Origin: an uncultured Alphaproteobacteria bacterium
Lineage (GTDB): Bacteria; Pseudomonadota; Alphaproteobacteria; HIMB59; GCA-002718135
Direction of reading: 5' to 3'
DNA length: 64,000 nucleotides
NCBI GenBank assembly: GCA_902524385.1
Contig: CABZCZ010000007.1
Span: 6,091-70,090 of the forward strand
In this document: positions 29,763 through 40,965 of the stretch, piece after piece
Layout: each line of letters begins with the position of its first letter
Numbering within the stretch: position 1 is the stretch's first letter
Notes under the pieces: generated by a model
Told to the model about the DNA's origin: nothing
Databases searched by the model: none
What the model saw: the letters and a program-made list of their open reading frames with translations, nothing else
Made by a program: the position numbers and the translations under genes

Positions 29763-31004
29763 GTGTCAGATAATTTAGAAATTAACAAAAGAGAATATCC
29801 AAGCTCTTTCTCGAAAACTGCTATTGTTATATGCCTTGATGGCAGTCAAAAAGAGTATCTCGACGAAGCATCAAAATCAAATCTTACGCCAAATCTTGAT
29901 AAATTAATTGCAAGTGGTGAAAACCTACTAGTTCACAGCGCTATTCCAAGTTTTACAAATCCTAATAATATTTCCATTGTAACTGGGCAGCCAAGTTCTG
30001 TTCACGGTATATGCGGAAACTTTTTCTATACACCTGAGACTGGTGAAGAAGTAATGATGAATGACCCAAAATATATGCGAGCACCAACTATTTTTGAAAA
30101 ATTTTATAATTCCGGTTCTAAAATTGTTCTTGTTACTGCAAAAGACAAGTTGAGAAAACTTTTAGGAAACGGATTAAGTTTTGATGATGAGAGAGCTATT
30201 TGTTTTTCTGCTGAAAAATCTGATCAAGCAACAAAAGATCTCAATGGTATAGATAATGTAAACGATTGGTTGGGGATGCCAGTGCCAGAAGTATATTCTG
30301 AAGGACTTTCTGAATTTGTAATGGCTGCAGGTGTAAAGCTTCTTGAAGAGTTTAAACCAAATATCATGTATTTATCTACTACGGATTATATTCAACACAA
30401 ATATGCACCGGGAAATGAAACAGCAAATAAATTTTATGCAATGTTTGATAAATATATTGGTCTTTTAAACAGGGAGAATGTTTCTATAATCATCACAGCA
30501 GATCACGGTATGAAACCAAAATCAAAAGAAGATGGTTCACCTAACGCAATATTTTTACAAGATTATTTAGATAAAAAATTTGAACCAAACATGGCTAAAG
30601 TCATCCTACCAATTACAGATCCATATGTCGTTCATCATGGTTCACTTGGTTCTTTTGCAACAATTTATTTAGAAGACAAGAGCAAGGTAGATTCAGTTGT
30701 AAATGCTATTAAAGAAATAAAAGATATAGAAGTTGTTTTAACAAAAGATGAAGGATGCTCTACTTATAATTTACCTCCTGATAGAATGGGGGATATCATA
30801 TGTATGTCTTCAGAATTTATGACTATTGGTTCATCGGAAGATAAACACAATCTTTCTGGATTAAATGAACCTTTACGTTCTCATGGAGGACTCCATGAAA
30901 GAGAAGTGCCATTCATATCAAATTTAAAATTACAAAATTTAGATACTAGCAAACAATTATATAACTATGATGCATTTTACTATGCAATTAACGGAGCCTT
31001 ATGA
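29763..31004 (+). CDS. phnA: Phosphonoacetate hydrolase (alkaline phosphatase superfamily)
   Basis: Extended agreement with the remembered PhnA sequence: [69 protein letters not shown] and PLRSHGG. It has a GTG start in the track. Confidence 0.88.
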
Positions 31005-32443
31005 TGCACAAAAAAATGATTAATGAAGCAATGCGTATAGCTGGAGAAAAAGTTACTTCAGATAAAACAATAAATGTTGAGTACCCTTTTACAGGTGAAG
31101 TAATCGGAACGGTCCCAGCCGGTACCGCAGAGCATGCAAGAAAGGCTTTAGATATTGCTGCAAATTATCAGCCTAAACTTACAAGATATGAGAGACAAAA
31201 AATTCTTCAAACTGCTGCTGAAGTACTTGTTAAAAGAAAAGAAGAAATTTCTGATATTATTACTTTAGAGCTTGGTATCTCAAAACAAGATTCTTTATAC
31301 GAAGTAGGAAGAGCTTTCGATGTATTTTCATTAACGGCTCAACTTTGTATTCATGATGATGGTGAAATATTTTCTTGTGATTTAACTCCGCATGGAAAAG
31401 CGAGAAAAATATTTACCATAAGAGAGCCCTTAACTGCAATTTCAGCAATAACTCCATTTAATCATCCTTTGAATATGGTAGCGCATAAAATTGCACCTTC
31501 AATTGCAACAAATAATTGTACTGTATGTAAACAAACAGAATTAACACCTTTAACAGCAATGGTACTCGCTGATGTTTTATATGAAGCTGGCTTACCACCA
31601 GAAATGTTTTCAGTTGTAACTGGATGGCCTCAAGATATTGGATCTGAAATGATCAAGAATCCAAATATTGATCTAATTACTTTTACAGGCAGTGTAGGTG
31701 TAGGAAAATTAATTGCTGAACAAGCTGGATATAAAAGAACAGTTCTTGAGCTAGGCGGTAATGATCCTTTAATTGTTTTAAATGACTTAGATGGTGATGA
31801 TCTTAAAAAAGCTGTTGAGTTAGCTGTTACTGGAGCAACGAAAAACTCTGGTCAACGTTGTACAGCTGTTAAAAGAATACTGGTTCAAGAATCAATTGCA
31901 GATCAATTTGTTGAAATGGCTCTTGAGCGTGCTAAGAAAATTAAATTTGGTGATCCTATGAATATGGAAACAGACTTAGGTACTGTTGTTAATGCTCAAG
32001 CTGCAGAACTTTTTGATAAAAGAGTTTCTATGGCTGAAGAAGACGGTGCAAAAATTTTATATCATCCTGGAAGAAAGGGTGCTTTGTTACCTCCAATAGT
32101 TGTAGATAATGTTGACCCTAAAAGTGAATTAGTTTTAGAAGAAACATTTGGTCCAGTTATCCCAATCATTCGTGTGCCTAATGACGATGAAGCTGTAATG
32201 AAAATATCTAATTCAACTGCATTCGGATTATCATCTGGTGTATGTACAAATAACTTCATGCGAGCAAAAAAATATATTCAAGGTTTAAATGTTGGTACGG
32301 TAAATATTTGGGAGGTTCCAGGCTATAGAATTGAAATGTCTCCTTTTGGAGGAATTAAAGATTCAGGTCTTGGTTACAAAGAGGGTGTTATTGAAGCAAT
32401 GAAAAGTTTTACTAATGTAAAAACCTTTTCGCTACCTTGGTAA
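31001..32443 (+). CDS. phnY: Phosphonoacetaldehyde dehydrogenase (aldehyde dehydrogenase family)
   Basis: ALDH fold with LELGGNDP (Glu) and GQRCTAVKR (Cys). It has an ATGA overlap with phnA, and phnW is nearby. Confidence 0.8.
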
Positions 32444-32500: not shown

Positions 32501-32527
32501 GTAATATTTTCGTAATAAAATTGTAAC
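32501..32527 (+). promoter_or_regulatory. Candidate Pho-box-like triple direct repeat (11-bp phase) upstream of the SBP gene
   Basis: GTAATattttcGTAATaaaattGTAAC, with pentamers at 32501, 32512 and 32523. The proximal repeat ends 53 nt before the ATG. The layout resembles the E. coli pho box (7-nt repeat plus 4-nt AT spacer). Confidence 0.4.
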
Positions 32528-35004: not shown

Positions 35005-36117
35005 ATGTGGAATTATTTTAACCCTGTTGAAATTATCTTTGGAGAAAATAGATTTAAAGAAGTACATGATGCTGTTAAAAATAAGAATTACATCATAATC
35101 ACGCATCCAGAAGAAATTTTTAAAAAATACAGTGATGAATTAAAATCTTCATCAAATCCACCACTATCCATTATGACGGATGTTCAGCCTAATCCAGATT
35201 ATAAGGATATTTTAGAGCTACAAAAAAAATTTTCATCAATCAATGAATCGGTAGATTATATTTTAGCTATAGGTGGTGGCTCTGTTACAGACACAGCTAA
35301 AGCAATTGCTGCATTTAAAGATAAACAAGAATATCTAACAGATTTCGTTCGCAATAAGAAAAGTCCTAGAGTTGAAAATCCAATCAAGATTATTGCAATA
35401 CCTACAACTTCAGGAACATCAAGTGAACTTACGTGTTGGGCCACAATTTGGGATAAAGAAAAAAATAATAAATTATCTTTGGCTCATAAATCTCTTTATG
35501 CAGAAAAAACAATTATCGATCCATCTATTATGGTTGATAAGCCTTTAGGCTTGACTATTTCAACTGGTTTAGATGCTCTCTCCCATTCAATGGAAAGTAT
35601 TTGGAATATTAATGCGAACCCAATTTCTGCTTCTCATGCAATACAAGCATCAAAATTAGTACTAGAAAATTTACCACTTCTCGCTAAAGATTTAAAAAAC
35701 GTTGAATTACGCTCAAACATTGCATTGGCGTGTGTTCATGCTGGCTTAGCGTTTTCCAATACGAAAACTGCTATTGCGCACAATCTATCATACCCTGTGA
35801 CACTCAATTACGGTATTCAGCATGGTATTGCTTGTTCATTTACTTTACCCATGATTACTAAAAGTATGGTTGGAATTGATAGTGTAGCAGAAGAAAGACT
35901 AAAGTTAATTTTTAATGATAATCTAGAGAATGCCGCAAATTATCTGAGTGAATTTATGCGTTCTTTAGAGGTTCCTCTTAACCTAAATGAAATAAAAGTT
36001 CCTGTTCAAGAGTGGAATAATATAGTAGATGGTGCGTTTTTAGGGGAACGAGGTAAAAACTTTATTGGCAATAAAGAAGCCTTCATCTCTTCTGCTAAAT
36101 CAATGGGACTTTATTAG
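35005..36117 (+). CDS. Group III iron-containing alcohol dehydrogenase; candidate 2-hydroxyethylphosphonate/phosphonoacetaldehyde oxidoreductase
   Basis: Has NPVEIIFG, GGGSVTDTAK and a His cluster (LDALSHSMES...AHNLSYP). It starts 4 nt after the MetE-like gene. The substrate assignment is inference from context. Confidence 0.75.
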   Translation: MWNYFNPVEIIFGENRFKEVHDAVKNKNYIIITHPEEIFKKYSDELKSSSNPPLSIMTDVQPNPDYKDILELQKKFSSINESVDYILAIGGGSVTDTAKAIAAFKDKQEYLTDFVRNKKSPRVENPIKIIAIPTTSGTSSELTCWATIWDKEKNNKLSLAHKSLYAEKTIIDPSIMVDKPLGLTISTGLDALSHSMESIWNINANPISASHAIQASKLVLENLPLLAKDLKNVELRSNIALACVHAGLAFSNTKTAIAHNLSYPVTLNYGIQHGIACSFTLPMITKSMVGIDSVAEERLKLIFNDNLENAANYLSEFMRSLEVPLNLNEIKVPVQEWNNIVDGAFLGERGKNFIGNKEAFISSAKSMGLY

Positions 36118-36119
36118 TA

Positions 36120-37226
36120 ATGAAAAAAAATTTCAGGTTTTATGATAACAGACAAAAATATTTATTATTTGTCACAACAACAAATGAAAAAAATCAAATT
36201 GCTGATGCGATACGTCCTCACGTAAATAAAATTAAACCTCAAAAACCCGGTTTAAAAATATTTGATGCTGGTATGGGTGATGGTTCCTTACTTATGAATG
36301 TGATGCGTCAGTGCCACGAAGCTAGGCCTAATGTACCTCTATTAGTTTGTACAAAAGAAATAAGTATTGAAGATGTAAGATTAGGTTTAGAAAAATTACC
36401 CGATAGGTTTGTTGAACATAAGAATACTGTTTTTGTTATTTCAAATCTACACTACGCTGAAGCCGCAAACCTAAAATCAAAAAATGAAGTTAAACAGAAA
36501 AAAATTAATTGGAATATTATTAAATTAAAAGGTGACACTTCTCTTGAATTTGCTCAACAATTAAGAAAACAAAATGAATTTTTAGAAAAAAAATGGAATA
36601 TAGAAATTAACAAAAAGTCAGGTAACCATACTTATAAAGAGCCTTCAGTCATGGTTATCTACCGCGAGGATCAAGAATTTAATGTTAATGAATTAATACC
36701 TACCAAAAAAAAATCAGATAATAAATTTGATCTCATCATAGCTTCACAGCCTTATCGGTCAAGAATTTCAGCAGAAAAAAAATCAAAATACGTCATCGAA
36801 CCAATGATAAAAGCGTTAAAACCAAAAGGTAAATTATTAACTATTCATGCTTCAGGAAAAGATCCTGCTAATGAAATAATTTGTAAAATTTGGCCAAAAG
36901 AGATCCCCTTTCCTTCTCTTGGAAATAGTATCATTTCTTATCTTAAGAAAAATTTAGATAAAGATTTATTAAGCAGTTTATCTTTTGGAGAAAAAAGAAT
37001 TATTAAATGTAAACTGAGAGCTCTACCAACAGAAATCACTGGAGGTATAGCGACATCATTAGTTTTTTCTGCTTGGAATGCCTCCATATATGTCAATCAA
37101 ATGGATGATGATAAAGTAATGAAGGTAGAAAAAACAAAAAATTACGAAAAAGTAGTTCAAAAAATTGTTGCTAAAAATAAAGGTCTTTATTTTAACAATG
37201 AAATATTTGTAATCGAAAAAAAATAA
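36120..37226 (+). CDS. Uncharacterised protein with a Rossmann SAM-methyltransferase-like motif I
   Basis: Has LKIFDAGMGDGSLL (a D/E-x-G-x-G-x-G-like motif). No family was recognised. It starts 2 nt after the ADH gene. Confidence 0.4.
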   Translation: MKKNFRFYDNRQKYLLFVTTTNEKNQIADAIRPHVNKIKPQKPGLKIFDAGMGDGSLLMNVMRQCHEARPNVPLLVCTKEISIEDVRLGLEKLPDRFVEHKNTVFVISNLHYAEAANLKSKNEVKQKKINWNIIKLKGDTSLEFAQQLRKQNEFLEKKWNIEINKKSGNHTYKEPSVMVIYREDQEFNVNELIPTKKKSDNKFDLIIASQPYRSRISAEKKSKYVIEPMIKALKPKGKLLTIHASGKDPANEIICKIWPKEIPFPSLGNSIISYLKKNLDKDLLSSLSFGEKRIIKCKLRALPTEITGGIATSLVFSAWNASIYVNQMDDDKVMKVEKTKNYEKVVQKIVAKNKGLYFNNEIFVIEKK

Positions 37227-37229
37227 TTA

Positions 37230-38018
37230 TTATTTAAACCAATTAACTTCTGTTTTTAAAAAATCCTCGGTATGAATAATTAAGGCGTCAGATCGAATTA
37301 TTGCAACATTATAATTTGTATCTGTATTTGCTGTCCCTAAACGATATTCATTTGAAAAGTTAGGTATCAGAGGAGACCAAGTACTTCTTGGGGAGGAAAA
37401 AGTAATACCACAATAAGAACCAGAACTTGTAATGTGCTGATGACCAAAAAAAATATGTTTTATTATCTTATTATTTTTAGTTAAAATTTGTTGAAACTCT
37501 TTTTTTTGTTGTAATCCTATTCCATCACTTTCCTCTTTTACTAATGCTAGTGGATTATGATGCATAAAGATGTACGTATCCGTATTAGTCTTACTTAAAA
37601 TATTATTTAACCATTCTTGCCTCTCTTCACAGTAATGTCCTTGGTGAGTGTTAATCAGATTAGTATCTATAAAAATTAAACGTTTATTATCTATATCCTT
37701 AAAGTATTGAATAAATCCATTTGAATCGGTTTCAATATTAGGAAAGTTTATTTTAAACTCATCTCTGTTATCATGATTACCTATAATTAATTGAGGATTT
37801 AAATTCTTTGGCAGATCTGCTTCATCAATTATTTTTATAAATAACTGATAAGAATCTTTATCACCTAAGTCTGTAATATCACCAGTGATAGCAAATAAAT
37901 CCGCATCACCATGATTATTTTTTATATGACTTAATGCTTTTTTAAATTTACTGACAGGATCTATGCCATGAATCTTATCTATATAAATATGGGGGTCTGA
38001 AAGGTGAATAATTTTCAT
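37230..38018 (-). CDS. Calcineurin-like metallophosphoesterase (class III PDE, CpdA/GpdQ-like diesterase)
   Basis: Motif series: SDPH, GDITD, GNHDN, MHH, GHQH. Confidence 0.8.
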   Translation of the reverse strand: MKIIHLSDPHIYIDKIHGIDPVSKFKKALSHIKNNHGDADLFAITGDITDLGDKDSYQLFIKIIDEADLPKNLNPQLIIGNHDNRDEFKINFPNIETDSNGFIQYFKDIDNKRLIFIDTNLINTHQGHYCEERQEWLNNILSKTNTDTYIFMHHNPLALVKEESDGIGLQQKKEFQQILTKNNKIIKHIFFGHQHITSSGSYCGITFSSPRSTWSPLIPNFSNEYRLGTANTDTNYNVAIIRSDALIIHTEDFLKTEVNWFK

Positions 38019-38038
38019 TATTAAATATAAATTTATAA

Positions 38039-38671
38039 TTAGATCACAGTTTTAAAATAAATATATTTATTAAATTCCTCTTTTAAGTCGATGCTAACTC
38101 TTGCATGTACCTTACCTTGTTTTCCTTGAAACGATTGTTTTTCTGTAACTGGAAACACCCCTTCATGCCAAATGTTTGGATGAATATACAAACCTTTTGA
38201 TCCATCACAATAAAATGCTTTAAAATGTTCTGGTTCAATGTCGTCTGTCGGTAAGGCTAAAGGACAAATAAATGGTTTATTTTCTTCAGGAAAGAAAAGC
38301 TGACCTCCATCAGGATGATAATTTGCATGCCATAGAAATATTTTTGTTGGATCTGAATATTTATCTTTTTGTAATTCTTGATCAGGATTATTGGCATAAC
38401 CCAGTATATATTTTCCATCTACTTCATAATCACTTTTATGTTGGACAGCATTATTTTGTCCATAAAGCACGTCACCTTGCCACCAGGTATCAAAAGAACC
38501 TTCGGTAGTTCCACCTTCATTTCCTGTTCCCTCTTCTATGTCGCGCCATCCTTGTTTTGGCCAAGTAACAATTTCAATATCACTATTTTCAAAACTATCG
38601 ATTAAATACCCATATCCTTTAAGATTTTCATTTGTTGCTTTAACTAAAGGTATTTCAATTTTTATTGTCAT
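38039..38671 (-). CDS. Ureidoglycolate lyase (AllA, PF04115)-like cupin with an insertion
   Basis: Blocks align by eye to E. coli AllA: KGYGYLID (AYGDVIE), YHPDGGQLFFP (RHPLGTQAFIP) and AFYCDGSKGLYIHPNIWHEG (AFITNGEQGVNYHRNVWHH). Confidence 0.55.
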   Translation of the reverse strand: MTIKIEIPLVKATNENLKGYGYLIDSFENSDIEIVTWPKQGWRDIEEGTGNEGGTTEGSFDTWWQGDVLYGQNNAVQHKSDYEVDGKYILGYANNPDQELQKDKYSDPTKIFLWHANYHPDGGQLFFPEENKPFICPLALPTDDIEPEHFKAFYCDGSKGLYIHPNIWHEGVFPVTEKQSFQGKQGKVHARVSIDLKEEFNKYIYFKTVI

Positions 38672-38678
38672 TATTTTG

Positions 38679-39776
38679 TTAGTTTAATGTTAATCCTAAT
38701 TCAGTAACGACTTCTTTTACAGCTTTTATTGTGTCCATCATGTCTTGTTCATCTAAATTACCAATACACCCAATTCTAAAAGTTTCTGCCACTGTTAGTT
38801 TTCCTGGATAAATTAAAAAATCTTTTTCACTAAGAGCATTATAAAATTTCTCAAAGTTAAATTTAGGATCATTAGGTTGTTTAAACGTAATAATAATTGG
38901 TGCTTGCAAATTATCAGGAAGTAGTTGCTCAAATCCCAACTCTTTCATTCCATTACAAATAATTTCACAATTTTTTTTATATCTTTTGCCTCGTCCCTCT
39001 ACACCGCCTTGTTCTTTATGTTCCTCAATCGCTTGATTGAATGCAGCCAATACATGTGTTGGAGGTGTAAATCGCCATTGTTTATTTTTTTCCATTGCTT
39101 GCCATTGATCATATAAGTCTAGACTTAGTGAGTGACTATTGCCTTTTGCATTTTGAATAACTTCATTTTTAACAAGAATGAAACCAACACCTGGCACACC
39201 TTCTAAGCATTTGTTTGATGAAGCGGCTACAGCATCAAAAGTAATTGTTTTAGAACTTAAGGGTAATGCACCAAAGGCACTCATTGCATCGATGAATAAC
39301 GATAAGTTTTTCATTTCAACTAATTTTGCAATCTCTTCAATAGGATTTAAAATACCCGATGTTGTTTCACAATACACAGCAAAGACGTGTGTTAAGTTGT
39401 TTCTATCAATTAACTCTTCAATTTTATTGATGTCATGTACTTCATGTTCAGCAACTTCATATTCAATAAAATCTCTCCCTAAATAAGTGCACATTTTTTT
39501 CATTCTTTGCCCGTAAGCACCATTGATCAGAATCAGAATTTTAGAATCTTTTTGAGTAAGAGAGCTCACCATCGACTCTACAGCAAAAGTTCCACTTCCC
39601 TGCATTGGAACACATTGATATTTATCTTCACCGTCTATTAATTTAACAAGGGAATCTCTAATTGATGCATTGAGATCAATAAATTTTGTATCCCTTGAAC
39701 CCCAATCATGAAGCATAGCCTCTTTTGTTGACATCGATGTCGTGAGAGGACCAGGGGTTAATAATTTTTTATCCAT
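38679..39776 (-). CDS. phnW: 2-aminoethylphosphonate--pyruvate transaminase
   Basis: Class V aminotransferase with LLTPGPLTTS at the N-terminus and 365 aa. It is in the same cluster as phnA and phnY. Confidence 0.8.
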   Translation of the reverse strand: MDKKLLTPGPLTTSMSTKEAMLHDWGSRDTKFIDLNASIRDSLVKLIDGEDKYQCVPMQGSGTFAVESMVSSLTQKDSKILILINGAYGQRMKKMCTYLGRDFIEYEVAEHEVHDINKIEELIDRNNLTHVFAVYCETTSGILNPIEEIAKLVEMKNLSLFIDAMSAFGALPLSSKTITFDAVAASSNKCLEGVPGVGFILVKNEVIQNAKGNSHSLSLDLYDQWQAMEKNKQWRFTPPTHVLAAFNQAIEEHKEQGGVEGRGKRYKKNCEIICNGMKELGFEQLLPDNLQAPIIITFKQPNDPKFNFEKFYNALSEKDFLIYPGKLTVAETFRIGCIGNLDEQDMMDTIKAVKEVVTELGLTLN

Positions 39777-39864
39777 TAAATATTCACTTAATAAATATTA
39801 TTATAAATTTGATCAATCTTATTAAAGTTGGAATTGAATTTATTTTCTAATAAGTTAATTATAA

Positions 39865-40434
39865 ATGAGAATGGAAGAAAATATCGTAGATTATCTCTTA
39901 GATCTTTTGAAAACAAAAGGTGCTGATATTCAATATGGTAATGAGGATGTGACTCAGCTTGAGCACGCACTCCAATGTGCCGAACTTGCTGAAAAACATA
40001 AATTACCAGGACCAACAATTGCTGCAGCATTATTACACGATGTTGGCCACCTTATCTATGAGGACGGCGATCCCATTCATGAAGGGAAAGATGGTCATCA
40101 TGAAAACTTAGGTGCTGATTTTTTAAAAAAATATTTTGGTGAAGATGTTATTTTACCAATTAGAGCACATGTTGATTCAAAAAGATATTTATCAAGTGTT
40201 GAAGAAGGTTATTATGATAGTCTATCAGAAGCATCGAAACTTTCGTTAAAAGTTCAAGGTGGTCCTTTCACAAAAGAAGAAGCAGATGCGTTTATAAGCA
40301 AACCTTTTATGGATGAGGCAGTTGAGCTTAGAAGATTTGATGATTTAGCAAAAATTCTAGATAAAAAAACTCCCGATGTTGAACATTTTCGTCCCTATTT
40401 AGAAGAAGCAAGACAGTCTTTTTTAGCTAAATAA
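39865..40434 (+). CDS. phnZ: HD-domain di-iron oxygenase of the PhnZ/TmpB family (TIGR03276-like)
   Basis: QLEHALQCA, AALLHDVGH, HHEN, AHVDSKRYL, LSEASKLSLKVQGGPF and RRFDDLAK match the remembered PhnZ blocks. It is divergent from phnW. Confidence 0.7.
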   Translation: MRMEENIVDYLLDLLKTKGADIQYGNEDVTQLEHALQCAELAEKHKLPGPTIAAALLHDVGHLIYEDGDPIHEGKDGHHENLGADFLKKYFGEDVILPIRAHVDSKRYLSSVEEGYYDSLSEASKLSLKVQGGPFTKEEADAFISKPFMDEAVELRRFDDLAKILDKKTPDVEHFRPYLEEARQSFLAK

Positions 40435-40440
40435 GCGTAA

Positions 40441-40965
40441 ATGCAATTTAGCAATTATGATTTTATTGACTCTAAGTCATTTGCAGGCAAAATTATATTA
40501 ACTTCTTTTCCAGGTCTTAATTCTAATGGTTTATTTGAAGAAACAATTTTAGCAAACGAATTAGAAATATTTAAAAATAACAATTGTAGTTCTATTACTT
40601 CTTTTGTTGAAGATAGCGAATTTGAAAAATTGTGTGATAAAACTTTGTTTGTCAAAAATATTTATGAACATAAATTACATTGGTACCATTTACCCATTTA
40701 TGACATGGGAGCACCAGATAAAGATTTTAAATATAAATGGGAAACAACAAAAGTTTTATTAAAGAACGAATTGATAGATGGTAAAAATATAGTTTTACAT
40801 TGCCGTGGAGGAAAAGGAAGAGCTGGCACCATAGCTGCTATTTTACTTGTTGAATTTAATTATCAAAAACAAGAAGCTATCGATCTAGTGCGATCAAGAA
40901 GAAAAGGGGCTATTGAATCTAAAATCCAGGAAGATTTTATTTTTTCTTATCGAGCAGTTGATTAA
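40441..40965 (+). CDS. Cys-based (CX5R) dual-specificity/PTP-like phosphatase, cytoplasmic
   Basis: Has the P-loop HCRGGKGRAGT and an upstream DMGAPD general-acid loop. There is no signal peptide. Confidence 0.7.
   Translation: MQFSNYDFIDSKSFAGKIILTSFPGLNSNGLFEETILANELEIFKNNNCSSITSFVEDSEFEKLCDKTLFVKNIYEHKLHWYHLPIYDMGAPDKDFKYKWETTKVLLKNELIDGKNIVLHCRGGKGRAGTIAAILLVEFNYQKQEAIDLVRSRRKGAIESKIQEDFIFSYRAVD

What the first reader, a model, noticed from the sequence alone, without database searches (positions are those of the whole stretch)
38039..38671. AllA (ureidoglycolate lyase)-like cupin in a phosphonate context
Seen in sequence: a 210-aa protein has three blocks that align by eye to E. coli AllA, plus an insertion of about 50 aa (GTGNEGGTTEGSFDTWWQGDVLYGQNN...). 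It lies 8 nt downstream of phnW and 20 nt upstream of the GpdQ-like diesterase, on the same strand. No other allantoin or ureide genes are nearby.

Established: AllA cleaves a C-N bond at an alpha-hydroxy carbon.

Inference: within a phnW operon the family may have been recruited for a hydroxy-amino or ureido phosphonate. Possible roles are releasing ammonia or urea and generating an aldehyde for PhnY, or making the PhnZ substrate.
Basis: partly seen in the sequence, partly recalled or inferred. Interest (0 to 1): 0.62.

Follow-up and report, generated by a model that had tools for sequence, protein, structure and literature searches.

The report
Unstudied AllA-like cupin of phosphonate catabolism
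This small SAR11 protein, labelled "ureidoglycolate lyase" by databases, belongs to a separate and highly conserved enzyme family found only in bacteria that break down aminoethylphosphonate-type compounds, so it is probably an undescribed helper enzyme of marine phosphorus recycling whose reaction is still unknown.

Summary
The 210-aa ORF (38039-38671, minus strand) is real. It lies 7 nt after phnW and 20 nt before a metallophosphoesterase gene.

- **Fold:** it has the AllA/PF04115 fold (Pfam 40 bits; Foldseek to AllA about 1e-8).
- **Not the ureidoglycolate lyase:** AllA equivalog models score 22-33 bits against cut-offs of 160-315. A tree splits it from canonical AllA at 100/100 support. 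This same genome has a canonical AllA inside a xanthine dehydrogenase, allantoinase and allantoicase operon on another contig.
- **Conservation:** the subfamily is 51-62% identical across phyla, and its extra segments are conserved as well.
- **Link to phosphonates:** among 401 Alphaproteobacteria it occurs in 19 genomes: 14/29 with both PhnW and a PhnZ-like gene, 5/94 with only one, and 0/278 with neither. In at least 10 lineages it sits beside phnW, tmpA-tmpB, phnY*-phnZ, a PbfD-like plus PhnX-like pair, or an AEP ABC transporter.
- **No universal partner:** this weakens both the "aldehyde for PhnY" reading and the "missing hydroxylase" reading.

Best reading: an optional, metal-dependent accessory enzyme that acts on an AEP-related compound, possibly a 1-hydroxyphosphonate. 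I found no published description.

The parts
38039..38671 (-). 210-aa AllA-fold cupin of the phosphonate-associated PF04115 subfamily; the finding itself
   Evidence: ORF confirmed. Pfam PF04115 at 40 bits. AllA equivalog models score 22-33 bits against cut-offs of 160-315. AlphaFold model has pLDDT 88.7. Foldseek best hits are AllA. It forms a separate clade at 100/100 support.
38679..39776 (-). phnW, 2-aminoethylphosphonate:pyruvate transaminase; its stop is 7 nt before the cupin start
   Evidence: NF010006 at 512.8 bits against a cut-off of 296, and TIGR02326 at 459.5 bits against 400.8. The phnW-then-cupin order is kept in every SAR11, MarineAlpha5 and SAR11-like locus that reaches far enough upstream (L001-L062; L016, L027, L056 and L059 are cut at the contig end).
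37230..38018 (-). Calcineurin-type metallophosphoesterase (GpdQ/SpdA-like); starts 20 nt after the cupin stop, probably the last gene of the operon
   Evidence: PF00149 at 63 bits. Best NCBIfam hit is SpdA at 175.8 bits, below its cut-off of 400. It is not always adjacent: it is displaced or absent in L012, L030, L054 and L057.
38672..38678 (-). 7-nt spacer between the phnW stop and the cupin start; suggests co-transcription
   Evidence: Read from the sequence. No terminator-like site in 37000-40100.
39865..40434 (+). PhnZ/TmpB-family HD di-iron oxygenase, transcribed divergently from phnW, with no hydroxylase gene beside it
   Evidence: TIGR03276 at 201.4 bits (cut-off 214.6) and TmpB model at 156.7 bits. 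PhnZ-like genes co-occur with the cupin genome-wide.
29763..32443 (+). phnA (29763-31004) and phnY (31001-32443): phosphonoacetate hydrolase and phosphonoacetaldehyde dehydrogenase, the downstream half of the PhnW pathway
   Evidence: TIGR02335 at 466.4 bits (cut-off 407.55) and TIGR03250 at 798.3 bits (cut-off 635.65).
35005..36117 (+). Fe-alcohol dehydrogenase of the phosphonate-associated type (PhpC-like, putative 2-hydroxyethylphosphonate dehydrogenase); part of the same island
   Evidence: TIGR03405 at 360.9 bits, below its cut-off of 423.7. Function of the type is described in PMC13576164.

Best explanation
**What it is.** The gene encodes a member of a distinct, very strongly conserved subfamily of the ureidoglycolate-lyase (AllA, PF04115) cupin fold. 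It is not the cell's ureidoglycolate lyase.

**Where it works.** In SAR11 it is co-transcribed with phnW. Across bacteria it is an optional accessory gene of aminoethylphosphonate-type (AEP and N-methyl-AEP) phosphonate catabolism.

**Most likely mechanism (inferred).**
- It is a divalent-metal enzyme that keeps the AllA core (H119, Q124, W168-H169).
- It has gained new invariant residues: H115, D121, H164, E170, H189, R191, S193 and R43.
- AllA and DsyD bind 2-hydroxy-carboxylates. By analogy, this enzyme would bind an AEP-related 1-hydroxyphosphonate, such as 1-hydroxy-2-aminoethylphosphonate or an N-methylated form.
- It would convert the carbinol carbon to a carbonyl while breaking one of that carbon's bonds. 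This would widen the range of AEP-related compounds the cell can mine for phosphorus.

**Partners.** It needs no single obligatory partner enzyme.

**Shown versus inferred.** Shown here: fold, subfamily separation, conservation, operon position and co-occurrence. Inferred: metal dependence, substrate class and reaction.
For: **Family identity**
- PF04115 match. Foldseek top five hits are all AllA, E about 1e-8, TM 0.5-0.65, with a model of pLDDT 88.7.
- AllA equivalog HMMs are far below their cut-offs.
- Canonical and phosphonate-type sequences split at 100/100 support, with 3.3 + 5.6 substitutions per site between them.
- Residues: H119, P120, Q124, F126, P128, W168 and H169 are shared. AllA's invariant Glu and its usual Arg are replaced by invariant N117 and Y118, and D121 replaces Leu.
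- 25 of 44 carrier genomes also hold a full-length canonical AllA at 114 bits or more.
- In this genome, the canonical AllA sits in an xdhA, puuE allantoinase, allantoicase, AllA operon.

**Conservation**
- 51-62% identity to members from other phyla, including Cyanobacteria, Anaerolineae and Acidimicrobiia. 51 columns are invariant, including the inserted segments.

**Co-occurrence in 401 Alphaproteobacteria**
- The cupin is in 14/29 genomes with both PhnW and a PhnZ-like gene, 2/47 with PhnW only, 3/47 with PhnZ-like only, and 0/278 with neither.
- Odds ratios are 29-69, with p from 4e-10 to 3e-14. Carriers span 13 families, and all 13 have PhnW or a PhnZ-like gene.

**Co-occurrence outside that class**
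- PhnW: 13/18 genomes, and 5/7 over its cut-off (a sixth gene is cut short by a contig end) in the Gammaproteobacteria set. PhnZ-like: 20/25.

**Physical linkage in at least 10 lineages, with different partners**
- phnW then cupin in SAR11, MarineAlpha5 and Betaproteobacteria.
- tmpA, tmpB, cupin (L087) and tmpB then cupin (L097).
- phnY*-like, phnZ-like, with the cupin convergent (L160).
- PhnX-like, cupin, TIGR03364/PbfD-like (L079).
- AEP ABC permease PhnU2, SDR, cupin (L162), and the cupin beside an AEP-type ABC transporter (L068).

**Chemistry of relatives**
- AllA is a Ni2+-dependent lyase acting on a 2-hydroxy acid (PMC3793230).
- DsyD, a PF04115 domain, carries 2-hydroxy-acid (DMSHB) decarboxylase activity (PMC11306096).
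Against: - No biochemical or expression data exist.
- About three quarters of non-SAR11 copies are hundreds of kb from any phosphonate gene, in unrelated neighbourhoods (GST, UPRTase, PhaC, GlnD and others).
- No partner gene is universal, so the substrate cannot be deduced from context.
- The co-occurrence statistics are not corrected for phylogeny or genome size.
- The 1-hydroxyphosphonate idea rests only on analogy with AllA and DsyD. I give it roughly 0.3.
- I could not inspect model coordinates, so the proposed metal site is inferred from alignment alone.
Confidence: 0.55

Rival explanations
1. Feeder enzyme upstream of the branch point. It would work with phosphoesterases (the GpdQ-like enzyme in SAR11, EEP-family proteins in some Betaproteobacteria) and AEP importers. 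Its job would be to free or unmask AEP-type head groups from natural conjugates such as phosphonolipid or phosphonoglycan fragments, so that either the hydrolytic or the oxidative route can use them.
For: - No downstream enzyme is universal among carriers, which fits a step before the pathways diverge.
- The cupin is adjacent to AEP-type ABC transporters (L068, L162) and to an MFS transporter (L160).
- It is followed by a metallophosphoesterase in SAR11.
- It is preceded by an EEP-family (PF03372) protein in L163 and L164.
Against: - No known AEP conjugate offers the hemiaminal or 2-hydroxy-acid motif that AllA-type chemistry needs.
- Trimethyl-AEP cannot carry N-conjugates.
- The esterase neighbours are lineage-specific. 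The metallophosphoesterase is missing or displaced in several SAR11 and MarineAlpha5 loci.
Confidence: 0.2
2. Bridge lyase. It would be a PLP-independent counterpart of PbfA that converts 1-hydroxy-2-(alkyl)aminoethylphosphonates into phosphonoacetaldehyde plus amine, feeding PhnY/PhnA or PhnX.
For: - The gene is most frequent in genomes that have both a hydroxylating/oxidative pathway and a PhnW-type pathway: 14/29, against 6% or less elsewhere.
- It follows phnW in a phnW-phnY-phnA island.
- PbfA sets a precedent for this kind of bridge (PMC8154272; PMC10574752).
Against: - 5 of 44 carrier genomes have neither PhnA nor PhnX or a PhnX-like gene. They are G279 and G399 (98% and 94% complete), G370, G698 and G008. 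In G698 and G370 the cupin lies next to phnZ or tmpB.
- Inside a tmpA-tmpB-cupin operon, this enzyme would compete with TmpB for the same intermediate.
Confidence: 0.1
3. Missing hydroxylase. It would be a non-haem iron oxygenase that hydroxylates C1 of AEP-type compounds for the partnerless PhnZ-like enzyme next door. The reading rests on the H119-x-D121 ... H164/H169 ... R191-x-S193 pattern, which resembles the motif of Fe(II)/2-oxoglutarate oxygenases.
For: - The pattern is invariant across the subfamily.
- The window's PhnZ-like gene has no hydroxylase beside it.
- There is strong genome-level association with PhnZ-like genes: 17/19, odds ratio 46.5.
Against: - Dedicated hydroxylases already sit beside the PhnZ/TmpB gene in many carriers. 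TmpA scores over its cut-off in 11/19 alphaproteobacterial carriers. TmpA-TmpB-cupin form one operon in L087. A PhyH-type hydroxylase precedes PhnZ in L160.
- 7 of 44 carriers have no PhnZ-like gene.
- The fold and the only profile match are AllA, not any 2-oxoglutarate oxygenase family.
- G000 has two TmpA-like paralogues elsewhere in the genome.
Confidence: 0.08
4. Ordinary ureidoglycolate lyase (AllA), or a protein unrelated to phosphonates that only hitch-hikes next to phnW.
For: - Public sources name it 'ureidoglycolate lyase'.
- It matches PF04115 above the gathering score.
- Most non-SAR11 copies are not next to phosphonate genes.
Against: - AllA equivalog scores are 22-33 bits against cut-offs of 160-315.
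- AllA's invariant Glu and its usual Arg are replaced.
- Identity to canonical AllA is only 16-21%.
- A canonical AllA lies within a ureide operon in the same genome and is present in 25/44 carriers.
- The cupin is found in 0/278 genomes that lack both PhnW and a PhnZ-like gene.
Confidence: 0.05

Closest known systems
AllA / DAL3, Ni2+-dependent (S)-ureidoglycolate urea-lyase (EC 4.3.2.3; Pfam PF04115; PDB 1xsq, 1xsr, 1yqc, 2bdr)
   Same: - Same fold (Foldseek E about 1e-8, TM 0.5-0.65).
- Same Pfam family.
- Shared invariant core: H119, P120, Q124, F126, P128, W168, H169.
   Different: - 16-21% identity.
- 44 extra residues in two conserved segments.
- AllA's invariant Glu and usual Arg in the E-R-H-P motif become N-Y-H-P-D. 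Many new invariant residues appear: H115, H164, E170, H189, R191, S193, R43.
- AllA equivalog models are not met.
- Genomic context is phosphonate genes, not ureide genes. A canonical paralogue coexists with it.
DsyD, the C-terminal PF04115 domain of the DMSP-synthesis enzyme DsyGD (PMC11306096)
   Same: It is the only other PF04115 member tied to a non-ureide reaction. It acts on a 2-hydroxy acid that carries an onium group (DMSHB to DMSP). That substrate is chemically parallel to 1-hydroxy-2-trimethylammonioethylphosphonate.
   Different: - DsyD is fused to a methyltransferase, has canonical length (about 150 aa), and was inactive when expressed alone.
- The window protein stands alone, carries insertions and lies in phosphonate loci.
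- Direct sequence comparison was not possible because no DsyD sequence was at hand.
DUF4867 proteins SftX / SqvD of sulfoglycolysis (PDB 9gyy, 9gyz; PMC11968277)
   Same: - A metal-binding cupin related to AllA.
- A recurrent 'extra' gene in catabolic clusters for an organo-anion (sulfonate rather than phosphonate), where all the main steps already have enzymes.
- Function unknown.
- A weak Foldseek hit (E about 3e-3).
   Different: A different family with a 2His-2Glu iron site, set in a sugar-metabolism context.
Pbf accessory enzymes of AEP catabolism (PbfA lyase, PbfB/C/D FAD oxidases, PbfF racemase, PbfG dehydrogenase; Peracchi group)
   Same: Same genomic behaviour. It is an optional gene that recurs in phnW/phnX/phnA-phnY clusters of many taxa. 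Such genes are presumed to widen the range of substrates the pathway can use.
   Different: - Unrelated fold.
- Also linked to oxidative tmpA-tmpB and phnY*-phnZ loci, and often encoded far from the cluster.
- Not mentioned in any of those papers.

Membership tests
AllA ureidoglycolate lyase (EC 4.3.2.3) | Match to Pfam PF04115 above the gathering score | tested here: met
   40 bits against a cut-off of 23, but only residues 119-182 match profile positions 76-139 of 162.
AllA ureidoglycolate lyase (EC 4.3.2.3) | Score above the NCBIfam equivalog or subfamily cut-offs for ureidoglycolate lyase | tested here: not met
   Best score is NF002949 at 33 bits against 230. All eight models score 22-33 bits against cut-offs of 160-315.
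AllA ureidoglycolate lyase (EC 4.3.2.3) | AllA fold (swapped small-barrel cupin) | tested here: met
   AlphaFold model has pLDDT 88.7. The Foldseek top five are all AllA chains, E from 1e-8 to 9e-8, TM 0.46-0.66. Dimer swapping was not testable.
AllA ureidoglycolate lyase (EC 4.3.2.3) | Conserved E-R-H-P-x-G-S-Q motif and W-H-H motif of canonical members | tested here: not met
   H, P, Q and W-H are kept. However, Glu (17/17 canonical) becomes Asn (26/26), Arg becomes Tyr, Leu becomes Asp, Ser becomes Gly, and the second His of W-H-H becomes Glu.
AllA ureidoglycolate lyase (EC 4.3.2.3) | Genomic association with allantoinase, allantoicase or purine catabolism | tested here: not met
   No ureide genes lie near the window gene. 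The genome's xdhA, puuE, allantoicase operon on contig C1 has its own canonical-length AllA.
AllA ureidoglycolate lyase (EC 4.3.2.3) | Ni2+-dependent release of urea from (S)-ureidoglycolate | not testable with these tools
   Needs an enzyme assay. The reference activity is described in PMC3793230.
Accessory ('Pbf-like') enzymes of AEP-type phosphonate catabolism (operational class) | Recurrent presence in or with AEP-degradation gene sets across unrelated taxa, beyond chance | tested here: met
   0/278 genomes without PhnW or a PhnZ-like gene carry it, against 19/123 with one or both. Odds ratios are 29-69. It is adjacent to phosphonate genes in at least 10 lineages.
Accessory ('Pbf-like') enzymes of AEP-type phosphonate catabolism (operational class) | Demonstrated activity on an AEP-related compound | not testable with these tools
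Fe(II)/2-oxoglutarate hydroxylases of phosphonates (PhnY*, TmpA) | H-x-D/E ... H triad plus an R-x-S 2-oxoglutarate-binding motif | tested here: inconclusive
   The sequence pattern H119-P-D121, H164/H169 and R191-V-S193 is invariant. Its three-dimensional arrangement could not be checked.
Fe(II)/2-oxoglutarate hydroxylases of phosphonates (PhnY*, TmpA) | Homology to the TauD, PhyH or other 2-oxoglutarate oxygenase families | tested here: not met
   No Pfam or NCBIfam hit to any such family. Foldseek gives AllA first, and the only JmjC-type hit (3al5) has E 1e-2.
Fe(II)/2-oxoglutarate hydroxylases of phosphonates (PhnY*, TmpA) | Stands in for the hydroxylase, so its distribution should be complementary to PhnY*/TmpA | tested here: not met
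   TmpA scores over its cut-off in 11/19 carriers. There is a TmpA-TmpB-cupin operon, and a PhyH-PhnZ pair lies next to the cupin.
DsyD (DMSHB decarboxylase domain of DsyGD) | PF04115 domain fused to a DsyG methyltransferase, set in a DMSP-synthesis context | tested here: not met
   The window protein has a single domain, and no methyltransferase fusion appears in any of the 26 aligned members. The context is phosphonate genes.

The most novel reading that the evidence does not exclude
The cupin is a self-sufficient enzyme that cleaves carbon-phosphorus bonds by a new mechanism. It would bind a 1-hydroxyphosphonate (1-hydroxy-AEP, its N-methyl forms, or hydroxymethylphosphonate) at its metal and break the C-P bond directly.

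There are two possible routes:
- AllA-like and non-oxidative, giving an aldehyde plus phosphite. This would be the enzymatic counterpart of the spontaneous sulfite loss that follows TauD action on taurine.
- DsyD-like and oxidative, giving a carboxylate plus phosphate.

This reading would explain three observations: no partner enzyme is universal, many copies stand alone, and the gene still occurs only in organisms equipped to import and use AEP-type phosphonates.
Probability: 0.12. Interest if true: 0.92.

Novelty: new variant of a known kind. Interest (0 to 1): 0.66.

Why it matters
Phosphonates make up a large share of marine dissolved organic phosphorus, and SAR11 is the most abundant heterotroph in the ocean.

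- **A gap in known pathways.** A conserved enzyme sits directly behind phnW in every SAR11 locus examined that reaches far enough upstream. It also recurs with tmpA-tmpB, phnY*-phnZ and PbfD/PhnX modules in other phyla. Yet it is absent from published pathway schemes, so those schemes are probably incomplete.
- **Database annotation.** Its label, "ureidoglycolate lyase", is misleading. It inflates apparent ureide catabolism and hides a phosphonate marker gene in metagenome surveys.
- **What solving it would give.** Identifying the reaction would add either a new feeder step or a new way of processing 1-hydroxyphosphonates. It would also give a third characterised chemistry to the small PF04115 family.

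Tried and rejected
- **Pho box.** A scan for the island's phased GTAAY repeat found only the known site at 32501. Nothing turned up in the phnW-phnZ spacer.
- **SDR partner.** A short-chain dehydrogenase lies next to the cupin in several loci. Only the L161 and L162 pair is orthologous (67% identity). The others are generic SDRs at 25-30% identity, so I rejected this as a general partner. PbfF belongs to a different family, PF02826.
- **Hydroxylase replacement.** Rejected as a general role.
- **Phosphonoacetaldehyde-forming bridge lyase.** Its prediction that every carrier has PhnA or PhnX failed in 5/44 genomes.
- **TmpA as the specific partner.** Only 11/19 carriers have it.
- **Literature.** Searches for cupin, ureidoglycolate or PF04115 in the Pbf papers, and for PbfE, PbfH, PbfI and PbfJ, found nothing relevant.
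- **Gene calling.** My home-made ORF calling in high-GC loci is rough. Neighbours there were trusted only when a profile search confirmed them.
Full report
**Observation.**
The ORF at 38039-38671 (minus strand, 210 aa) exists as described. Upstream on the same strand is phnW (38679-39776; NF010006 at 512.8 bits). Its stop is 7 nt before the cupin ATG. Downstream, 20 nt after the cupin stop, a calcineurin-type metallophosphoesterase gene begins (37230-38018). No terminator-like site separates the three genes.

The surrounding island also holds several phosphonate genes:
- phnA and phnY;
- a PhpC-like Fe-alcohol dehydrogenase;
- a PhnZ/TmpB-family HD oxygenase, transcribed divergently from phnW and with no hydroxylase beside it.

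The window is from a SAR11 single-cell genome; locus L001 is 100% identical.

**Family.**
Pfam places the protein in PF04115 (E=4e-10, 40 bits against a cut-off of 23), but only residues 119-182 match. All eight NCBIfam ureidoglycolate-lyase models score 22-33 bits against cut-offs of 160-315.

An AlphaFold model built on 26 homologues is confident (pLDDT 88.7, pTM 0.87). Its only strong PDB neighbours are the four AllA entries (E about 1e-8, TM 0.46-0.66). The DUF4867 cupin appears far behind them.

Compared with canonical AllA, the protein is 16-21% identical. It carries 44 extra residues, mainly at 35-50 and 84-103.

I built a maximum-likelihood tree from 17 canonical AllA sequences and 26 members of this subfamily; 15 of the 17 canonical sequences come from genomes that also contributed a subfamily member. 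The two groups separate at 100/100 support, with about 9 substitutions per site between them.
- The core H119, P120, Q124, F126, P128, W168 and H169 is shared.
- AllA's invariant Glu and its usual Arg are replaced by invariant Asn and Tyr. Leu becomes Asp121.
- H115, H164, E170, H189, R191, S193, R43 and most of the inserted segments are invariant only in the new group.

The subfamily is very conserved. The SAR11 protein is 51-62% identical to members from Cyanobacteria, Anaerolineae, Acidimicrobiia, SAR324, and Beta- and Gammaproteobacteria. The family is also large: 4152 relatives in the 90% clusters, and 389 clusters at 50% identity with E<1e-10.

**It is not the cell's ureidoglycolate lyase.**
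A PF04115 scan of 44 carrier genomes finds a second, full-length canonical AllA (114-210 bits) in 25 of them. The phosphonate-type copy always scores 31-51 bits over profile positions 73-139.

In this very genome, the canonical-length copy lies on contig C1, directly after allantoicase (354.8 bits against 277.9). It is near PuuE allantoinase (438.8 against 424.6) and xanthine dehydrogenase. The ureide role is therefore already filled.

**Link to phosphonates: neighbourhood.**
In every SAR11 and MarineAlpha5 locus that reaches far enough upstream (four are cut at the contig end), the gene follows phnW. The downstream esterase is sometimes displaced or absent.

Outside these groups I examined 42 genomes. 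The gene lies within about 8 kb of phosphonate genes in about nine of them, and the partners differ:
- **phnW then cupin** in two Betaproteobacteria, L066 and L071.
- **tmpA, tmpB, cupin** as one operon in L087. TmpA scores 603.9 bits against 400, and TmpB 366.5 against 300.
- **tmpB then cupin** in L097, with TmpB at 353 bits.
- **An MFS transporter, a PhyH-type PhnY*-like hydroxylase and a PhnZ-like gene**, with the cupin convergent and overlapping their 3' ends, in L160.
- **PhnX-like, cupin, TIGR03364 oxidoreductase** in a cyanobacterium, L079. TIGR03364 is the family of PbfD (PMC10590968).
- **AEP ABC permease PhnU2 (785 bits), an SDR, then the cupin** in L162.
- **An AEP-type ABC transporter beside the cupin** in L068.

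The remaining copies sit in unrelated neighbourhoods.

**Link to phosphonates: whole genomes.**
I searched one fixed sample of 401 Alphaproteobacteria. The cupin is in 19 genomes from 13 families. PhnW is in 76 and a PhnZ-like HD protein is in 76. The cross-tabulation:

| Genome class | Genomes with the cupin |
|---|---|
| PhnW and PhnZ-like | 14/29 |
| PhnW only | 2/47 |
| PhnZ-like only | 3/47 |
| Neither | 0/278 |

Fisher odds ratios are 28.6 against PhnW, 46.5 against PhnZ-like, and 68.5 against both together. The p-values run from 4e-10 to 3e-14. These are not corrected for phylogeny, but all 13 families follow the rule.

In diverse genomes outside the class, 13/18 have PhnW over its cut-off, compared with 1/14 control genomes. 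PhnZ-like genes are in 20/25. Of seven Gammaproteobacteria carriers, 5/7 have PhnW over its cut-off, and a sixth gene is cut short by a contig end.

In most of these genomes the genes lie hundreds of kb apart, so the association does not arise from operon hitch-hiking alone.

**What the distribution says about function.**
No single partner is universal:
- PhnZ-like genes are missing from 7 of 44 carriers.
- TmpA is present in only 11 of 19.
- PhnA (29/44) or PhnX/PhnX-like (14/44) are together missing from 5 of 44. These are G279, G399, G370, G698 and G008. In the first four, only the oxidative pathway is detectable.

This has three consequences:
- It argues against a phosphonoacetaldehyde-forming bridge lyase.
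- The presence of TmpA or PhyH hydroxylases beside the HD oxygenase argues against the 'missing hydroxylase' reading, despite the suggestive invariant H-x-D ... H ... R-x-S pattern.
- The models that survive are an enzyme acting before the pathways diverge, and an enzyme that acts on its own on an AEP-related compound.

**Mechanistic inference.**
AllA is a Ni2+-dependent lyase. It collapses the carbinol carbon of a 2-hydroxy acid to a carbonyl and expels urea (PMC3793230). The only other functionally tied PF04115 domain is DsyD, which carries the oxidative decarboxylation of the 2-hydroxy acid DMSHB (PMC11306096). The related DUF4867 cupin binds iron through 2 His and 2 Glu (PMC11968277).

1-Hydroxyphosphonates are the phosphonate counterparts of 2-hydroxy acids. 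They are exactly the intermediates made by PhnY*/TmpA and consumed by PhnZ/TmpB/PbfA.

I therefore favour a metal enzyme that binds a 1-hydroxy-2-(alkyl)aminoethylphosphonate, or a close relative, and converts C1 to a carbonyl. I give this about 0.3. The new Arg and His residues may form the pocket for the phosphonate. This step is inference only. The general statement, that this is an accessory enzyme of AEP-type phosphonate catabolism and not AllA, I hold at about 0.85.

**Novelty.**
Full-text searches found no description of this protein. I searched the four Pbf papers, a 2023 review, and queries combining ureidoglycolate or cupin with phosphonate terms. Earlier notes from this scan on sister SAR11 genomes reached the same general view.

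This report adds:
- the genome-level contingency table;
- the canonical paralogue in a ureide operon of the same genome;
- the tree and the residue contrasts;
- new linkage types (phnY*-phnZ, PhnU2-SDR, EEP);
- the failed prediction for the bridge-lyase model.

**Limits.**
- There are no expression or biochemical data.
- MAG incompleteness affects absence calls.
- ORF calls in high-GC loci are heuristic.
- The statistics are not corrected for phylogeny.

Noticed in passing
L165 (G000 contig C1:8000-19000), outside the window: This SAR11 genome carries a compact purine/ureide operon: xanthine dehydrogenase small subunit, PuuE allantoinase, allantoicase and a canonical-length AllA-like gene. An ABC transporter of the 'B6-type' BMP family follows it.
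   Followed up: partly
P0238 (metagenomic protein): A divergent homologue of the cupin (37% identity, with Arg191 replaced by Cys) is fused to a C-terminal glyoxalase/VOC domain (PF00903, 59 bits). P0165 and P0184 are similar homologues with long N-terminal extensions, and look eukaryote-like.
   Followed up: partly
L161:7556-8260 and L162:14732-15436: An orthologous 234-aa short-chain dehydrogenase (67% identity between the two genomes) lies directly upstream of the cupin and overlaps it. In L162 it follows the AEP ABC permease PhnU2. This may be a lineage-specific two-enzyme module.
   Followed up: partly
L163:507-1469 and L164:7159-8091: An endonuclease/exonuclease/phosphatase-family protein (PF03372, the fold of sphingomyelinase-type phosphodiesterases) directly precedes the cupin in two genomes of the Gammaproteobacteria-class sample (G550, G722). 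This echoes the metallophosphoesterase that follows it in SAR11.
   Followed up: no
G279 contig C52:159611-162494 and G399 contig C57:49804-52668: In these genomes the PhnZ-like gene is flanked by two TmpA-family hydroxylase paralogues, one at about 528 bits and one at about 297 bits. This suggests an oxidative module with two substrate specificities, in genomes that lack PhnW, PhnA and PhnX.
   Followed up: no
loci L100, L117, L120, L121, L123, L124, L126, L138: In the eight listed loci (L100 is from a cupin carrier, G019), the TIGR03276-like HD protein sits inside C-P lyase operons next to PhnM, not next to a hydroxylase. Counts of 'phnZ' based on this model therefore mix at least two functional contexts.
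   Followed up: partly
window 40441-40965 (+): A CX5R dual-specificity-phosphatase-like protein (PF22784, 49.5 bits) starts 6 nt after the PhnZ-like gene. The pair is conserved in the SAR11 loci that reach that far.
   Followed up: no
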